Assembly: GCA_963514005.1 (NCBI GenBank)
Contig: OY740812.1
Coordinates: 17,980,001-18,044,000 of the forward strand
DNA: 64,000 nucleotides
Direction of reading: 5' to 3'
DNA from: Raja brachyura
Taxonomy: Eukaryota
A program made the translations under genes and the position numbers. The notes under the pieces are model-generated. The model worked only from the letters and a program-made list of their open reading frames with translations, had not been told where the DNA came from and searched no databases. Below are positions 27,394 through 51,257 of this stretch, in pieces. The stretch's first letter is position 1; each line of letters opens with the position of its first letter.

Positions 27394-28751
27394 CTCCTGG
27401 GCAATACATAGATGGCTCGTCCACATCCACATCATAACTCAGCTATTACCCCTTACAGGTGGCTGAATTGAAGGAACTTCACTTAATTTTACGGGATGTT
27501 CTTCCTCAATCCCTGACATGCGGACAGCATGTGTATGAGTGGGGCTCGCCACGTTGACACAAGAGGATGCATATGCTGGACTCTTGAGCAAAAAATGAGT
27601 GCTGGAGGAACTCAGCGGGTCAGGTATCAGGTGGAGGGAGTGGGCCTGCGATATTTTGGGCCGGGACCCTTGTTCAGACTGATAGGACAAGAATCCCCCC
27701 CTCCCAAAAAAATGTGTGAAGAATGGCCCCAACCTCAAGTGACTCCACCACTTCCCCTTCATCTACTAATCACTTGCCAGGCTTCATTCTGGCCCCACCC
27801 TACTCTGTTCTGTCTTTCTCCAGGCCTATTAGAACAGACTGAAGAAAGGTCCCGACATCCAAATGTCATCTGTCCATTTCCCTCCACAGACGCTGCTTGA
27901 CCTGCTGAGTTCCTGCATCATTTTCTTTTTTGCTCGGGGATTGAAATGTTATCTGATAACCTTTCCTTTGAAGAGCAAAACCAGCTGAAACAAGAACGCT
28001 CGACAGGGAGGAGGTCTCTTTTACTGCAATTAATATTCTCACCCATCTTCAGTGAGATATCGATCCGCCCCATCCCAGCAGGTCCCCTTAACTGTCCCGC
28101 CATTCTTTATCCACGCTTCTGTTTGGCTGCATTGCAAGGAAATCCTTCAGAAGAAAAGAAATAGGTGACGTTTCAGGTCAAAACCCTTCTTCGGACCCGA
28201 AATGTCACCCATTTCTTTTCTTCAGAGATGCTGCCTGACCCACTGAGATACTAGTGCAGCTAGTAGGAATGCCATCATCCTGTTCCCATTCCACATGACA
28301 ATGAAATAGTCTTGATGGGAAAACAACCACAGAGTTTGCACCTTCTCCCCAACTGTGTTCCCACGTCCTTTTGCATTCCAGACGCGTGCTGACTGGTTGT
28401 AAATTGCCCTTGATTTAGGAGATTGGAGCACAAGGGTGAAGCTGCTGGGAATGTGAAAGACAACGTTGTATGGAAACAGATGGGGAGAATGGGATTGATG
28501 GCATGAGGGACAACAATGACTTGATGGGAGAATTGCTTCTCATGTTGAAAGATAAAAAAAGATTGTCATTGCTAAATCAATGAGCAGGGCTCGAAATTAG
28601 CGGTTACCCGGGTGCCAATGATCACTCAAAATGCCGCCGGGCAACATACACGCCGAGTCATTTTGCCCGGCTTGGCACGCAAATACTGGTTTATACCGAA
28701 AGACACAGAAAACTGGGTAACTCAGCGGGTTAGGCAGAATCTCTGGCGAAT

Positions 28752-31700
28752 CTCTGTCGGGGAGGATTTAAACTGTGTCAGGGGGATGGGTACAAGAGCA
28801 GAGAGGCAGGTGGGTGTAAAACGAGTGTAGAAGCAATAGGGAGCAAGGTGAAAAGTAAAAGTGGCAGGCAGACAAAACCAGGGCAAAAATCAAAAAGAGC
28901 TACTTCTCAACAAAATTGTATAAGGGGTAAGAGCGTTGTAAAAACAAGCCTGAAGGCTTTGTGTCTCAATGCAAGGAGTATTCGTAATAAGGTGGATGAG
29001 TTGAACGTGCAGATAGCTATTAATGATTATGATATAGTTGGGATCACGGAGACATGGCTCCAGGGTGACCAAGACTGGGAGCTGAACATCCAGGGATATT
29101 CAATATTCAGGAGGGATAGAAAGAACGGAAAAGGAGGTGGGGTAGCGTTGCTGGTTAGAGAGGAGATTAACGCAATGAAAAGGAAGGACATTAGCTTGGA
29201 GGATGTGGAATCGGTATGGGTAGAGCTGCGAAACACTAAGGGGCAGAAAATTCTGGTGGGTGTTGTGCACAGGCCACCTAACAGTAGTAGTGAAGTTGGG
29301 GATGGTATCAAACAGGAAATTAGAAATGCGTGCGACAAAGGCAAAACAGTTATAATGGGTGACTTCAATCTACATATAGATTGGGTGAATCAAATTGGCA
29401 GGGGCGCTGAGGAAGAGGATTTTTTGGAATGTATGCGGGATAGTTATCTAAATCAACATGTAGGGGAACCAACGAGAGAGCAGGCTATTTTAGACTGGGT
29501 ATTGAGTAATGAGGAAGGGTTAGTTAGCAGTCTTGGTGTGCTTGCCCCCTTGGCAAGAGTGACCATAATATGGTCGAGTTCTTCATTAGGATGGATAGTG
29601 ACTTTGTTAATTCAGAAACAATGGTTCTGAACTTAAAGAAGTGTAACTTTGAGGGTATGAGACGTGAATTGGCCAAGATTGACTGGCAATCAATTCTAAA
29701 AGGGTTGACGCTGGATACGCAATGGAAGACATTTAAAGACTGCATGGATGAACTACAAAAATTGTTCATCCCAGTTTGGCAAAAGAATAAATCAGGGAAG
29801 GTAGGGCATCCGTGGATAACAAGGGAAATCAGGGATAGTATCAAAGCAAAGGATGATGCGTACAAAGTAGCCAGAAAAAGCAGCATACTAGAGGATGGAG
29901 AAATTCAGAGACCAGCAGAGGAGGACAAAGGGCTTAATTATTAAAGGAAAAATAGATTATGAAAGAAAACTGTCAGGGAACATAAAAACTGACTGCAAAC
30001 GTTTTTATAGATATGTCAAGAGAAAGAGATTAGTCAAAACAAATGTAGGTCCCTTGCAGTCAGAAACAGGTGAGTTGATCATGGGGAACAAGGATATGGC
30101 GGGCCAATTGAATAACTACTTTGGTTCCGTCTTCACTAAGGAAGACATAAATAATCTGCCGGAAATAGCAGGGGACCATGGGTCAAAGGAGGAATTGAGT
30201 GAAATCCCGGTTAGTTGGGAAGTGGTGTTGGGTAAATTGAATGGATTAAAGGCCAATAAATCCCCCAGGGCCAGATAGGCTGCATTCCAGAGTACTTAAG
30301 GAAGTAGCTCCGGAAATAGTGGATGCATTAGTGATAATCTTTCAAAGATTCTGGAGTAGTTCCTGAGGATTGGCGGGCAGCAAACGTAACCCCTCTTTTT
30401 AAGAAGGGGGGGGGAGAGAGAAAACGGGGAATTACAGACCAGTTAGTCTAACATCGGTAGTGGGGAAATTGCTAGAGTCAGTTATTAAAGATGGGATAGC
30501 AGCACATTTGGAAAGTGGTGAAATCATTGGACAAAGTCAGCATGGATTTACGAAAGGTAAATCATGTCTGACGAATCTTGTGGAATTTTTCGAGGATGTA
30601 ACCAGTAGCATGGATAGGGGAGAACCAGTGGATGTGGTGTATCTGGACTTCCAGAAGGCTTTCGACAAGGTCCCTCATAAGAGATTAGTATACAAACTTA
30701 AAGCATATGGCATTGGGGGTTCAGTATTGATGTGGATAGAGAACTGGCTGGCAAACAGGAAGCAAAGAGTAGGAGTATACGGGTCCTTTTCACAATGGCA
30801 GGCAGTGACCAGTGGGGTACCGCAAGGCTCAGTGCTGGGACCCCAGCTATTTACAATATACATTAATGATCTGGGTGAGGGAATTGAAGGCAATATCTCC
30901 AAGTTTGCGGATGATACTAAGCTGGGGGGCAGTGTTAAAGTTAGTGAGGAGGATGCTAGGAGACTGCAAGGTGACTTGGATAGGCTGGGTGAGTGGGCAA
31001 ATGTTTGGCAGATGCAGAATAATGTGGATAAATGTGAGGTTATCCACTTTGGTGGCAAAAACAGGAAAGCAGACTATTATCTAAATGGTGGCCGATTAGG
31101 AAAAGGGGAGATGCAGCACGACCTGGGTGTCATGGTACACCAGTCATTGAAAGTAGGCCTGCAGGTGCAGCAGGCAGTGAAGAAAGCGAATGGTATGTTA
31201 GCTTTCATAGCAAAAGGATTTGAGTATAGGAGCAGGGAGGTTCTACTTCAGTTGTATAGGGTCTTGGTGAGACCACACCTGGAGTATTGCGTACAGTTCT
31301 GGTCTCCAAATCTGAGGAAGGACATTATTGCCATAGAGGGAGTGCAGAGAAGGTTCACAAGCCTGATTCCTGGTATGTCAGGACTGTCTTATGAACAAAG
31401 ACTGGATAGACTCGGTTTATACTCTCTAGAATTTAGGAGATTGGGAGGGGATCTTATAGAAACTTACAAAATTCTTCAGGGGTTGGACAGGCTAGATGCA
31501 GGAAGATTGTCCCCGATGTTTGGAAAGTCCAGGACAAGGGGTCACAGCTTAAGGATAAGGGGGAAATCCTTTAGGGCCGAGATGAGAAGGACTTTTTTCA
31601 CACAGAGAGTGGTGGATCTCTGGAACTCTCTGCCACAGAGGATCGTTGAGGCCAGTTCATTGGCTATATTTAAGAGGGAGTTAGATGTGGCCCTTGTGGC

Positions 31701-31836
31701 TAAGGGGATCAGAGGGTATGGAGAGAAGGCAGGTACGGGATACTGAGTTGGATGATCAGCCATGATCATATTGAATGGCGGTGCAGGCTCGAAGGGCCGA
31801 ATGGCCAATCTTGCACCTAATTTCTATGTTTCTATG
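28752..31836 (+). mobile_element. 5'-truncated CR1-clade LINE; ORF2 (APE + RT) broken by frameshifts
   Basis: APE motifs (CLNARS, GITETW, VIMGDFN) in 28848..29630; RT motifs (YLDFQKAFDKVPH, SGVPQGSVLGP, KFADDTK) in 30460..31746; 3' tail (TTTCTATG)n. Confidence 0.95.
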
Positions 31837-41257: not shown

Positions 41258-42908
41258 CTGCAGGAGACAACACACCTGTTCACTGCCAGATATTGCCTAT
41301 TCCACCCTGTGCACATCCAATCAAATTTGCAGTGATCTTCAAACGTTGGGGAGAACATATAATCAGTAATGAAATCATTCACTGCAATTGTATCTACACA
41401 GGGCCATTATAAATTTGGCGCTGAGCAACACAACCATTTTACACACTCACACTACACATAATATACAACCTTTAAAAGGGTCCCATTGACCTACTTAAAT
41501 ACCCATATGCAAACCTTTTTTTGTTTATAAAGTGTTTTGAAATTTAATGATCTACAAAATGCTACTTATAGGCACAGAAAATATCAAATAATTTATCAAG
41601 CAATACTATACTGTGTAAGATTACTTGATTACCCTACCATGGGTGTATTTATATTGCGTTTTGCACTTGTCTATTTCTTTTCACATTCTTGTAGCATTTT
41701 CCTACCATTCTTCCATTTGTTTGGTTGATAATTGTCACGTGTAATGAGGTAGAGTGAAAAGGTTTTTGTTGCGTGCTATCCAATCAGCAAAAAGACCACA
41801 CATGATTACACAAGATGTCCACCGTGCACAGACACAGGACAAAGGGAATAATGTTTAGTGCAAGGTAATGTCCAATTAATGTACCCGTGGAGCTTCTGCT
41901 CGTTAGATTCTCATTGTGCCTGTACTTCACCGTACAGGCACAATGCATATGACAATATAATTAACTCAGCTTGATTACTTTGCTATTATCAATGTTAATA
42001 CAGCGCAGAAACAGGACATCCGGCCCACCGACCAGCGATCCCCGCACATTAACACTACCCTACACACACACTGCGGACAATTTACACTTGTACCAAGTCA
42101 ATTAACCAACAAACCTGTACGTCTTTGGAGTGTGGGAGGAAACTGAAGATCTCAGAGAAAACCCATGCAGTCACGGGGGAAACATACAAACTCCGTACAG
42201 ACAGATGCACAGAGTCTCTTGCCCAGAGCAGGTGAATCGAGGACCGGGGACATGGGTTTAAGGTGAAGGGAAAACATTCAATAGGAACCTGAGGGGTAAA
42301 ATCTTCACACAAAGGGTGGTGGATGTATTGAACAAGCTGCCAGAGAAGGTAGTTGAGGCACGGACTATCCCAACATTTAAGAAACAGTTAGACAGGTACA
42401 TGGATTGGATAGGTTTGGAGCGATATGGACCAATTGCTGGCAGATGGGACTAGTGTAGATGGGACATGTTAGCCAGTGTGGGCAAGTTGGGCCAAAGGGC
42501 AAGCACTGTAAGGCAGCAACTCTACCACTGCGCCACTGTGCCTCCCGTAACATAACAATATGTTAAGTATGTTTATTCATTTCTTGATGTATAATTCTTA
42601 CTGGATAAAATGAATTCACTGCTGCATCTTGTGCCCATTGGACTGTGGAAATACTGATAACATTGGGAATATGATTTGAGTGGAGACATTTCAGATTACA
42701 ACAACAAAAAAGACCAATTCAGACTTTGTTTTTGGAGCTTTTAAAAAATAATTAGTAACATTTTGGAGCCAGTGTGCTCTGGGATGAATGAAGGGAAAAG
42801 CTGATCATGGAAAGAATTGAATGACTGAAGGTTTGATCAGGAAAAAAAAAACATCTTGACAGGTCTTGGCAACTGGAGAGGGGTACATATACGTTTTACT
42901 CAGAGTAA

Positions 42909-43226
42909 TGGGGCGATCCCACTGTATGAGCTAATTCAAGAGTTCTCCCGAGTTTCCCCTGATTTGAACTCGGAGAATTATGGTAATAGCCGCTTGTAGG
43001 TACTCGGGGCTCTCGTGGACATTTTTCAACATGTTGAAAAATCTTCACGAGTCTTCACGAGATTACCGTGTTTCCAAAGTACCTGCCGTTAGCATTACGT
43101 GCCGCTAAGAGACGTCCCGAGCTTCGACGTACCCGCTACGTACAATCTACGTGCTTACCATGGGTGTGATTTTTTTTTAAAACTCGGGAGAGCTCTTGAA
43201 TTACCTCGTACAGCGGGACAGGCCCT
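42909..43226. mobile_element. PIF/Harbinger-type MITE
   Basis: Imperfect TIRs of about 45 bp (..tcccactgtatgagctaattcaagagttctcccgagttt / aaactcgggagagctcttgaattacctcgtacagcgggacaggccct); TAA on both sides. Confidence 0.8.
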
Positions 43227-43757
43227 TAACTCTCTGCCAATGGAGTTGGTGGAAATCGATAGAATCACCACGTTGGAGACATTTAACAACTTTGAATAAG
43301 TCAGGGAAGGGGCCCTAATAGGATTAGTGTAGGTACATTAAAAAAATCAGCGTTGACATGGAAAGTCAAGTAGCCCATTTCTGCACACTAACTATGGATT
43401 TTTAATTAGAATTATTGAACTTTGTTGTTTGCTTTATGATGTTATCAATTAAGTACTCTGCATACAGATCTGTTACGCTACTGGAAGTAAGATTGTCATT
43501 GTTCCGTTTCGGTACATATAACCATTAAACACTCTTGATTGAAAGTTATAATTCACAAGTGGCCAGCACAGTGGCGCAGCTGGTAGTGCTGCTGCCTCAC
43601 TGTGCCAAACACCTGGGTTCAATCCAGACCTCGGACCGTGCTCTCTGTCTGGAGTTTGCATGTTCTCCCTGAAAAAGCATGGGTTTTCTCCCACAACCCA
43701 AAGACCTGTGGCATTTTGTGGATTAATTGGCCTCTGCAAAATTGACTCTGGTGTGTA

Positions 43758-44421
43758 AACATAGAAACATAGAAATTAGGTGCAGGAGTGGGCCATTCGG
43801 CCATTCGGCCCTTCGAGCCTGCACCGCCATTCAATATGATCATGGCTGATCATCCAACTCAGTATCCCGTACCTGCCTTCTCTCCATACCCTCTGATCCC
43901 CTTAGCCACAAGGGCCACATCTAACTCCCTCTTAAATATAGCCAATGAACTGGCCTCAACTACCCTCTGTGGCAGAGAGTTCCAGAGACCCACCACTCTC
44001 TGTGTGAAAAAAGTCCTTCTCATCTCGGTCCTAAAGGATTTCCCCCTTATCCTTAAGCTGTGACCCCTTGTCCTGGACCTCCCAACATCGGGAACAATCT
44101 TCCTGCATCTAGCCTGTCCAACCCCTTAAGAATTTTGTAAGTTTCTATAAGATCCCCTCTCAATCTCCTAAATTCTAGAGAGTATAAACCGAGTCTATGC
44201 AGTCTTTCTTCATAAGACAGTCCTGACATCCCAGGAATCAGTCTGGTGAACCTTCTCTGCACTCCCTCTATGGCAATAATGTCCTTCCTCAGATTTGGAG
44301 ACCAGAAATGTACGCAATACTCCAGGTGTGGTCTCACCAAGACCCTATACAACTGAAGTAGAACCTGCCTGCTCCTATACTCAAATCCTTTTGCTATGAA
44401 AGCTAACATACCATTCGCTTT
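43758..44421 (-). mobile_element. Young CR1 3' fragment inserted in a SINE (SINE halves about 43566-43757 and 44435-44522)
   Basis: ORF 44053..44409 is almost identical to the RT C-terminus in 30460..31746; (CATAGAAA)n tail at the left end. Confidence 0.92.
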
Positions 44422-45024
44422 CTCAATTCATTCGAGAGGATGCGAAAGGATGAGAAAGTGGGATAACGTAATTAGTGTGAACGGTTGATGGATGGTCAGC
44501 ATGGACTCGGTGGGCCGAAGGGTAGGTTAATCCTGTAAATGAATGAATTGAGAAATGTGTTATAACACCCTTCAACTGAGGTGAAGTAACTGAACATCTC
44601 CAAAATCTTTCACCATTGTTAAAAACTTTAATATTTGAAAAATGTTTTCCTGGTGTTTAACCATAAGGCACCTGCTCACGTGGAAAAGCACAAGAGCTCT
44701 GGTCTGCCTCCATAGTCCCTGAAGAAGGGGCTCGATGCAAAACGTCACCCATTCCTTCTCTCCAGAGATACGGCCTGTCCTCCTGAGTTACTCCAGCATT
44801 GTGTCTATCCCTAGTGGGAGGCTCCAGTTAATGAACCCACACGTGCCTGAGGCAATAAGTGGCCAATTAGTGGTAGAGGATAAGAGTAGAGTTGTGAAAA
44901 TGGTCTTAGTCTAGTTTCAAATCCTATTATCTAATGAATCCCTAATATTACTTCAATTACATTGGCAAGAACAACAGCAATTTCCAAGGTTACATACAGT
45001 TCAAGAGTAATAATTAGGATTTCT

Positions 45025-45078
45025 GGGGTGGAAGATTGCAAACCTCACGTGGTCCGCCCTGTTTTGACTAATGCAGTC
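45025..45078 (+). ncRNA. Predicted minimal HDV-like self-cleaving ribozyme
   Basis: P1 GGGGUGG/CCGCCCU with G1-U wobble; P2 GAUUGCA/UGCAGUC; P3 ACC/GGU around L3 (U)UCACGU; J4/2 C-U-A-A with candidate catalytic C45068. Folded by eye; activity untested. Confidence 0.7.
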
Positions 45079-45119
45079 CTACAACTTTAGGCTGTGCACG
45101 CCACACGAAAGAAGAGAAG
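45025..45119 (+). mobile_element. 95-bp non-autonomous retroposon with HDV-like ribozyme head and AAG-rich tail
   Basis: Perfect 10-bp TSD taggatttct at 45015-45024 and 45120-45129; homologous copy at 51139-51257. Confidence 0.85.
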
Positions 45120-45155
45120 TAGGATTTCTAATGGATTGAAAGATTAGCAATGTAA

Positions 45156-45425
45156 TGGCCCTGTCCCATGGTACAAGTTCATTCCAAGAGCTCTCCTGAG
45201 TTAAAAAAAAATCAAACTCGTGGTAAGCACGGAGAATGAATGTAGCGGGGACAACTGTTAGCGGCTCGTAACGCTAACGGCAGGTCCTCGGGAAGACTGG
45301 CTAACGGCAGGTAAGCTCTGAGAGCCCAGAGTACCGACGAGCGGCCATTACCGTAAATTTCCAAGTTCGAATCAGGGCAAACTCGTGAGACTCTTGGAAT
45401 GAACACGTACCGTGGGACAGGACCA
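45156..45425. mobile_element. PIF/Harbinger-type MITE, same family as 42909-43226, opposite orientation
   Basis: TIRs tggccctgtcccatggtac... / ...gtaccgtgggacaggacca; TAA at 45153-45155 and 45426-45428. Confidence 0.8.
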
Positions 45426-45703
45426 TAAATCATGAACTGATTTGCCAATTTCCCCAAACGCGAAAAATTGTCCAATGAAGGGGAAATGTCTGGCATGAAA
45501 CTAAATAATTTGGCTCATCAAAGCCTCACTGGAAAATCCCCCATTTACTTTTTTCCAATTCCTTTGAGTTTCCAAACATCAAAGGGAAACCAAAACCAGC
45601 TCCGTCTACATATTAAAACAAAAGGCACAATGATTTATCTGTGGCTAGGAATCACCGTACTTCCTTCACCTTCATTTGATAGATAACACAAGGCAAAGGT
45701 TAC

Positions 45704-45824
45704 CATTTTATGCGTCCTACGGGGTCCCAGAAGCCAGGCCTGCTGATGGTACAGGGGCCAACAGTCGACTGTTTGTAGTAGCTGTAAAACTTCAGCATCT
45801 TCCCATGGGACGGCTGGTAAGAAC
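45704..45824 (-). CDS. ACBD4: ACBD4-like coding exon 2 ([41 protein letters not shown])
   Basis: ACBP signature YSYYKQ...GPC...RPGFWDP.GR.KW; acceptor ccatcag|, donor TG|GTAACC; 121 nt, phase 1 to 2. Confidence 0.96.
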
Positions 45825-51138: not shown

Positions 51139-51257
51139 CCTTCACGTGGTCCGCCCTGTTTCGACTATTGCAATCAACTCGACGTGCACAAACAGAAGAT
51201 GAAATAGAACAAGTTGTCCAACAACTTCAGGCTGTGCACGCCACACGTAAGAAGAAG
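51139..51257 (+). mobile_element. Second, 5'-truncated copy of the ribozyme-headed retroposon
   Basis: Shares cacgtggtccgccctgtt..gacta and acaactt.aggctgtgcacgccacacg.aagaag with 45025-45119 and keeps about 40 internal bases that copy lacks. Confidence 0.8.

What the first reader, a model, noticed from the sequence alone, without database searches (positions are those of the whole stretch)
45025..45119. 95-bp retroposon that is essentially an HDV-like ribozyme plus a LINE-type tail
Seen: a perfect 10-bp TSD (taggatttct) brackets 95 bp. From its first base the element reads GGGGUGG (P1) AA GAUUGCA (P2) A-ACC (P3) UCACGU (L3) GGU (P3') CCGCCCU (P1', G1-U wobble) GUUUUGA (vestigial P4) C-UAA (J4/2) UGCAGUC (P2'), followed by a short 3' segment and an AAG-rich tail. 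Known: this is the nested double-pseudoknot order of HDV/CPEB3-type ribozymes, which cleave 5' of G1. Such ribozymes process the 5' ends of R2, RTE and L1Tc/Ingi retrotransposons and of R2 short internally deleted elements. Inference: this is a SINE-sized family with no tRNA/Pol III head that cuts itself out of host read-through transcripts and is mobilised in trans, possibly by an Ingi/Vingi- or RTE-type LINE. The insertion boundary falls exactly on the predicted cleavage site. I cannot tell whether the family is already catalogued.
Basis: partly seen in the sequence, partly recalled or inferred. Interest (0 to 1): 0.9.

Follow-up and report, generated by a model that had tools for sequence, protein, structure and literature searches.

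The report
Ribozyme-headed miniature Vingi-type retroposon
This 95-base insert is a damaged, one-off copy of a very abundant 135-base jumping element made of the two ends of a longer retrotransposon; the element's first 54 bases are predicted to fold into a minimal self-cutting RNA that likely frees it from host transcripts.

Summary
The 10-bp TSD and 95-bp insert are real, but 95 bp is not the family. The insert is a unique copy with a 43-bp internal deletion of a ~135-bp element (4,344 exact head matches in the genome; roughly 18,000 copies estimated). Of 90 copies chosen by the tail alone, 76 align from G1. The family head is a textbook CPEB3-spaced HDV-like fold without P4; this copy has two changes that break P3/L3 and is probably impaired. 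I found the autonomous partner: a decayed ~3-kb Vingi-type LINE (APE, RT, no RNase H match) sharing the first ~77 and last ~39 bases, with U5-A32 where the short element has U5·G32. Other Vingi-like LINEs here begin with covarying ribozymes; one scores 56 bits on Rfam's CPEB3 model. In a single-cell RNA run of a carrier species, 1,329 reads have a loose end just before G1 whose consensus is the template-switch oligo, so RNAs begin at G1 in vivo. Cleavage itself is untested; an internal promoter or exonuclease stalling could give the same end. Verdict: a short internally deleted element (known kind), unusual for its minimal ribozyme, size and vertebrate abundance.

The parts
45015..45024 (+). 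left target-site duplication (10 bp)
45025..45031 (+). P1 5' strand; 45025 = G1, predicted cleavage site and 5' end of the element
   Evidence: RNA 5' ends at the equivalent base
45034..45040 (+). P2 5' strand (after 2-nt J1/2)
45041..45053 (+). P3-L3-P3'; this copy carries C18A (45042) and U20C (45044) against the family majority, breaking the middle P3 pair and the conserved first L3 U
45054..45062 (+). P1 3' strand, then G37 (predicted P1.1 partner of C22) and U38
45063..45067 (+). 5-nt linker in place of P4 (minimal ribozyme type)
   Evidence: other Vingi-like heads have 15-46 nt here
45068..45071 (+). J4/2, with the predicted catalytic C at 45068
   Evidence: C in 78 of 81 copies; C-N-A-A in all 6 heads where it was located
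45072..45078 (+). P2 3' strand; crosses the 43-bp deletion junction (45075/45076)
45079..45107 (+). LINE-derived 3' end: last codons, stop codon TAG (45088-45090) and 17-nt 3' UTR of the partner LINE
45108..45119 (+). (AAG)n-type tail
45120..45129 (+). right target-site duplication
51139..51257 (+). second family copy in the window, 5'-truncated at about family nt 18, with the internal segment that the 95-bp copy lacks
41258..45703 (-). intron of an acyl-CoA-binding-domain gene that holds the element in antisense (exons about 45704-45824 and from 41257 down)
   Evidence: weak Pfam ACBP match E 1.7e-5, under the cut-off; spliced reading frame and GT/AG edges; the name ACBD4/5-like is recalled

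Best explanation
The insert is a deleted, likely impaired copy of a ~135-bp non-autonomous retroposon built from the first ~77 and last ~40 bases of a Vingi-type LINE; its 54-nt head is predicted to be a P4-less HDV-like ribozyme that likely cuts the RNA just before G1, and the LINE protein likely copied the freed RNA into new sites by recognising the shared 3' end. Shown: shared ends with the LINE, TSDs, tail, fixed start at G1, covariation of the fold across LINE families, RNAs beginning at G1. Inferred: that the G1 end is made by self-cleavage out of host read-through transcripts; that insertion is by target-primed reverse transcription in trans; that the 43-bp loss in this copy is a one-off accident at or after insertion.
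For: Abundance: 4,344 exact head 33-mers and 4,018 exact tail 34-mers, reversed-pattern controls 0. 5' ends: 76 of 90 tail-selected copies align from nt 1, 82 of 90 within nt 1-5; a TSD was found in 71 of 90 and abuts G1 in 37, overlaps by one G in 8. Partner: L341 is a ~3.0-kb decayed APE-RT-zinc-knuckle element matching the short element at nt 39-77 (34/39) and at the 3' end (35/38); 20 LINE 5' ends follow the short element to about nt 77 and then diverge, and all 5 that start at nt 1-2 have A32 where the short element has G32, both pairing with U5; an older short copy is intermediate. Fold: 111 of 111 cells pair in P1, P2, P3 across 7 heads from 5 distinct head types, with two-sided changes at 4 of 7 P1, 2 of 3 P3 and 5 of 7 P2 positions; descriptor 0 hits in 15 shuffles of the window, both strands; the 7-8 changes that separate subfamilies A and B avoid all 43 constrained sites (Fisher p 0.009-0.018). 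RNA: in single-cell run X21, 1,329 of 3,760 laid reads have a loose end directly before G1, consensus the 30-nt template-switch oligo with no extra G, agreement 0.73; uncapped RNAs give no extra base, capped ones mostly one (PMC6885630, passages).
Against: No cleavage assay. Rfam HDV/CPEB3 models do not hit the short element or its partner's head. The window copy fails the descriptor. In bulk run X23, 826 of 3,077 laid reads run through G1 into mixed flanks and no start pile-up was listed, so many transcripts are uncut or antisense. The G-run blurs the RNA end (a capped start at G2 reads the same), the median loose length of 31 is unexplained, template switching favours 5'-G RNAs, and organism C may not be the window's species. 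Covariation among the short copies themselves is nil apart from position 32 against the LINE; the strong covariation comes from other LINE families, whose registers I set by hand. No single LINE copy was shown with both G1 and the tail (0 of 4 guessed 3' stretches). In 21 of 71 copies the TSD stops 1-6 bases before G1.
Confidence: 0.8

Rival explanations
1. Same origin from the LINE's two ends, but the head works mainly as an internal promoter that starts transcription at or next to G1 (as Pr77 of L1Tc does); the ribozyme fold is kept but cleavage is minor or dispensable.
For: Pr77 is both promoter and ribozyme (PMC4035085, passages). RNA ends at G1 do not show their chemistry; sense reads exceed antisense about 4:1 over the head in X21.
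Against: The plurality of reads lack the extra G typical of capped RNA; subfamily changes avoid paired and catalytic sites; no A/B boxes above chance.
Confidence: 0.12
2. The ribozyme is a dead relic; RNA ends at G1 come from 5'-3' exonuclease stalling at the G-run or pseudoknot, or from library bias, and full-length insertion only reflects the element's small size.
For: The fold is said to protect against 5' exonucleases (PMC13708176, passages); template switching prefers 5'-G; only 32 of 81 copies keep all 18 pairs and core bases.
Against: Both subfamily majorities and the LINE keep every pair and core base; strand invasion at GGG would give a 27-nt loose end, not the 30-nt consensus seen (my reading of the table).
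Confidence: 0.06
3. An ordinary tRNA-derived, Pol III SINE with a Vingi-type tail, the ribozyme look being chance.
For: A weak B-box-like stretch at nt 37-47 (3 mismatches of 11); SINE-like size and copy number.
Against: ARAGORN finds no tRNA in 6 of 6 loci; best A- and B-box matches are reached by 83% and 49% of shuffles; the head is the LINE's own 5' end.
Confidence: 0.02

Closest known systems
Short internally deleted elements (SIDEs) of R2 in Drosophila (PMC3414825, passages)
   Same: 5' HDV-like ribozyme joined to the 3' end of a LINE, no ORF, no Pol III head, mobilised in trans
   Different: R2 SIDE is 529 bp, site-specific in rDNA, low copy; this is ~135 bp, dispersed, about 18,000 copies, APE-type partner
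NARTc / RIME / SIDER of the L1Tc-ingi clade (PMC4035085, passages)
   Same: Short derivatives of an Ingi-group LINE that keep the 5' ribozyme; several were shown to cleave
   Different: Trypanosomatid; ribozyme drawn with P4 and doubling as promoter; partner has RNase H
Internally deleted non-autonomous derivatives of Vingi-1_EE and SINEs with Vingi 5' parts (PMC5786205, passages and supplement passages)
   Same: Bipartite Vingi derivatives; printed Vingi-2_Gav and Vingi-1_BF 5' ends show the same L3/J4-2 pattern by eye
   Different: In the passages seen, Vingi is not among the six clades listed with a shown ribozyme; the original Vingi paper and Ruminski 2011 were not held, so they may say more
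Minimal (P4-less) HDV-like and theta ribozymes (PMC10879173, passages)
   Same: P4 absent, catalytic C first in J4/2, active in vitro there
   Different: That study found nearly 99% in phages, next to tRNAs; here the P4-less form heads a vertebrate LINE and its parasite
Mammalian CPEB3 ribozyme (Rfam RF00622)
   Same: Same segment lengths and L3 UUCACGU, GU after P1, C-N-A-A (model consensus printed)
   Different: CPEB3 has P4 and other stem sequences; the model does not hit this family, but hits another Vingi-like head here at 56.3 bits

Membership tests
HDV-like ribozyme (family majority) | Nested double pseudoknot P1, P2, P3, P1.1 in the right order | tested here: met
   P1.1 is a single predicted C22-G37 pair
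HDV-like ribozyme (family majority) | Catalytic C first in J4/2; L3 U20, C22, G25; G1 pair | tested here: met
HDV-like ribozyme (window copy) | Intact P3 and L3 in canonical register | tested here: not met
   A18/G28 mismatch and U20C; descriptor fails
HDV-like ribozyme | Score on Rfam HDV, CPEB3 or HDV-F-prausnitzii model | tested here: not met
   no hit for short-element or partner heads; heads with P4 do hit
HDV-like ribozyme | 5' end of RNA at G1 in vivo | tested here: inconclusive
   ends at G1 seen in one run; end chemistry unknown
HDV-like ribozyme | Mg2+-dependent self-cleavage lost with C-to-U | not testable with these tools
   bench assay
Bipartite non-autonomous LINE (SIDE) | 5' end shared with an autonomous LINE | tested here: met
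   nt 1-77
Bipartite non-autonomous LINE (SIDE) | 3' end and tail shared with the same LINE; TSDs | tested here: met
Bipartite non-autonomous LINE (SIDE) | Mobilised in trans by the LINE protein | not testable with these tools
   inferred from shared ends and TSD lengths
Vingi clade (partner LINE) | Compact single ORF, APE + RT, no RNase H | tested here: met
   Pfam on 4 stop-free pieces of L341: APE, RT (weak), zf-RVT (weak), no RNase H; full-length relatives are about 1,000 aa with APE + RT and no RNase H family listed; definition from PMC13708176
Vingi clade (partner LINE) | RT phylogeny with named Vingi elements | not tested
   no named Vingi protein was at hand; only pairwise scores (36-39% to another Vingi-like RT, 30% to a Nimb-like RT)
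tRNA-derived SINE | tRNA-like head with A and B boxes | tested here: not met

The most novel reading that the evidence does not exclude
This is the smallest ribozyme-headed retroposon, and a P4-less minimal HDV-like ribozyme amplified to about 18,000 copies in a vertebrate, thousands of which still cut host transcripts today and release a stable ~135-nt RNA; and the Vingi 5' ribozymes of such genomes are the missing non-mammalian source of the CPEB3 ribozyme.
Probability: 0.4. Interest if true: 0.8.

Novelty: new variant of a known kind. Interest (0 to 1): 0.6.

Why it matters
It gives a vertebrate example, with parent LINE, intermediate and two subfamilies in one genome, of the model that a ribozyme plus a LINE 3' end is all a retroposon needs. 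It places a P4-less HDV-like ribozyme outside phages. With 32 of 81 sampled copies still structurally intact, thousands of possible cleavage sites lie in introns and UTRs, which makes the effect of ribozyme load on host transcripts testable. Vingi UTRs are used in gene-writing platforms, and this element shows natural minimal cis ends. The side result that a Vingi-like 5' end passes the CPEB3 model points to a testable origin for the mammalian CPEB3 ribozyme.

Tried and rejected
Rfam scans of the element: no ribozyme hit. MFE folding: uninformative. PF14529 search of the genome: the 30 loci read gave no match to the element; the 6 translated were a two-ORF Nimb/I-like LINE. First protein searches found other Vingi-like families (V1-V6) with different heads; V6 shares 17-18 terminal bases and was my provisional partner until one search found the true one. 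None of the 90 tail-selected copies continued into a LINE. Guessed 3' stretches of 4 G1-starting LINE copies held no tail. The look-up of sequencing runs listed no holder on record as RNA (no evidence either way). No earlier scan findings. Rejected: 95-bp family (junction unique); tRNA SINE; RTE partner (the partner's relatives and architecture fit Vingi better, by inference). Poly-A after the tail start in X21 (365 + 228 reads) was not used as evidence: it may be oligo-dT priming on the AAG tail. No covariance model and no RT tree were built.

Full report
Observation. The window shows a perfect 10-bp duplication at 45015-45024 and 45120-45129 around 95 bp. MFE folding is no better than shuffles (z 0.54) and Rfam gives no ribozyme hit on 44500-45700.

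The family. A DNA search of the own genome (2.7 Gb) returned copies that match nt 1-54 and nt 52-95 of the query separately, about 40 bases apart (40 of 1,821 candidates scored). Full-length copies are 125-150 bp with TSDs mostly of 9-13 bp and (AAG)n tails. Exact patterns give 4,344 head and 4,018 tail matches, controls 0. I read 90 of the first 100 tail matches (contig C1 only; two are duplicates of one another and were kept). 21 of 90 carry the exact head pattern, which gives roughly 18,000 copies, probably an underestimate. 76 of 90 align from nt 1 and 82 within nt 1-5; 8 are truncated or rearranged. A TSD of 7 or more bases was found in 71: abutting G1 in 37, overlapping by one G in 8, stopping 1-6 bases short in 21, elsewhere in 5. 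The 81 copies with a recognisable head (9 dropped) fall into subfamilies A (20; 7.7% from majority) and B (61; 3.9%).

The window copy. Against a zero-divergence B copy it lacks nt 52-94 and has C18A, U20C and C41U. The junction is unique in the genome and the P3/L3 variant has 3 exact copies. So it is an accident of the family, not its unit. It lies antisense in an intron of an acyl-CoA-binding-domain gene and would not cut that pre-mRNA.

The fold. The majority head reads P1 (7 bp, G1·U), 2-nt J1/2, P2 (7 bp), P3 (3 bp), L3 UUCACGU, G37-U38, a 5-nt linker, C-(G/U)-A-A, P2': the spacing of the Rfam CPEB3 consensus printed, without P4. A descriptor I wrote finds family copies and three Vingi-like heads (one mismatch allowed per stem; two further hits in those 96 loci look like chance), gives 0 hits in 15 shuffles of the window under the strict setting, and rejects the window copy. 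32 of 81 copies keep all 18 pairs and the core bases. Decay among copies looks neutral and CpG-driven, so it is not evidence of selection; but the changes between subfamilies avoid the 43 constrained sites (0 of 43 against 7-8 of 56; p 0.009-0.018). No tRNA (0 of 6 loci) and no A/B boxes above chance.

The partner. A recalled endonuclease motif and two protein searches showed at least six decayed single-ORF LINE families with ribozyme-like 5' ends and short 3' UTRs ending in an ACACG/ACTCG-like motif plus AAG repeats. One head is nearly the Vingi-1_BF 5' end printed in the supplement of PMC5786205 (compared by eye). A tail pattern that excludes the short element's own neighbouring bases gave 70 hits; 2 of the 30 read carry the element's last ~39 bases but continue into a zinc-knuckle C-terminus, the element's TAG being the LINE stop codon. 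That family has 687 first-look candidates and most of 30 loci end in the type A tail. L341 is a ~3.0-kb copy with APE, RT and zf-RVT matches and no RNase H match that begins at element nt 39 and ends with the tail. Of 20 LINE 5' ends (of 40 listed), most follow the element to about nt 77; 5 start at nt 1-2, and all 5 have A32 for the element's G32, turning U·G into U-A. An older short copy keeps A32 and LINE-like junction bases. Relatives in public data are ~1,000-aa APE + RT proteins with no RNase H family listed (75 hits). 'Vingi-type' rests on this architecture; no tree was built. Across 7 heads of 5 types every P1, P2 and P3 cell pairs (49/49, 41/41, 21/21; one head has no P2' scored; one row combines two copies; registers set by hand).

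RNA. Runs of at least seven coded organisms hold the element. I laid 4 of 24 runs on a B copy. In single-cell run X21 (about 1% read; 3,760 reads laid) 1,329 reads have a loose end directly before G1; the consensus next to the junction is the 30-nt template-switch oligo (its identity is recalled), agreement 0.73, median length 31. I checked on another row that this consensus is anchored at the junction. So RNAs begin at G1. PMC6885630 (passages) reports one extra base for capped and none for about 90% of uncapped RNAs, which fits an uncapped end, but a capped start at G2 reads the same and 5'-G is favoured. In bulk run X23 (about 5% read; 3,077 laid) 826 reads run on into mixed flanks and no start pile-up is listed. 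407 smaller loose-end rows were not shown.

Mechanism. Likely: host read-through (or the head's own promoter) makes RNA; the head cleaves before G1; the LINE protein binds the shared 3' end, nicks DNA and reverse-transcribes from the AAG tail; TSDs result. Shared ends, TSDs, G1 starts and RNA ends are shown; cleavage and trans-mobilisation are inferred. All LINE copies read are broken, so the family may now be immobile.

Comparison and novelty. The kind is known: R2 SIDEs (PMC3414825), NARTc/RIME/SIDER (PMC4035085), Vingi deletion derivatives (PMC5786205), general review (PMC6765202); I saw passages of each, not whole texts. New here: the P4-less head, reported almost only from phages in PMC10879173 (passages; its eukaryote set was human, mouse and protists), the size, the vertebrate copy number and the RNA ends. 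Searches 'Vingi + ribozyme' (6 papers), 'HDV-like + ribozyme + skate' (0), 'self-cleaving ribozyme + shark + SINE' (5), 'minimal HDV-like ribozyme + retrotransposon' (5) showed no listing that describes this family; Repbase, Dfam, Kojima 2011 and Ruminski 2011 could not be seen and may already cover it. That the host is a skate-like fish is recalled, not tested. Score 0.6: a well-supported variant of a known kind, with a side lead on CPEB3.

Noticed in passing
L155:1840-1914 (minus); also L142, L141, L162: The 5' end of a Vingi-like LINE scores 56.3 bits on the Rfam mammalian CPEB3 ribozyme model (gathering 35, E 4.9e-13); three other families score 24-31 bits. PMC8233481 (passages) says the CPEB3 ribozyme had not been found outside mammals; 'CPEB3 + Vingi' gave 0 papers. 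Suggests CPEB3 is a domesticated Vingi 5' end.
   Followed up: partly
L342-L361 versus L187-L280: Only 5 of 20 partner-LINE 5' ends start at nt 1-2, most lacking 3-15 bases, against 78 of 90 for the short element (Fisher 1e-7). Greater age of the LINE copies may explain part; otherwise reverse transcription of the long RNA often stops inside the ribozyme.
   Followed up: partly
L341:802-940; L145:1799-1940: Copies of the short element are inserted, with TSD in L341, into the endonuclease region of its own partner LINE and of another Vingi-like LINE.
   Followed up: no
L141, L155, L157, L162, L133/L145, L142: At least six other decayed Vingi-like LINE families, each with its own HDV-like head and P4 region of 15-46+ nt; in L172 and L168 the TSD abuts G1. 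Their own short derivatives were not sought.
   Followed up: partly
L006, L013, L004, L005, L003, L012: Other independent internal deletions of the family, two of them between the repeated GTGCAC words, all sparing the head and the last ~20 bases (these were found because they resemble the query).
   Followed up: no
window 28734-31743 (+): Decayed APE + RT LINE unrelated to the partner (no match to L341).
   Followed up: no
L061-L090: An abundant two-ORF Nimb/I-like LINE family with open frames up to about 800 aa; the clade name is recalled.
   Followed up: no
run X21 on L190:1531-1535: Poly-A begins right at the first A of the tail in 365 + 228 reads: true tailing or oligo-dT priming on AAG repeats, unresolved.
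   Followed up: no
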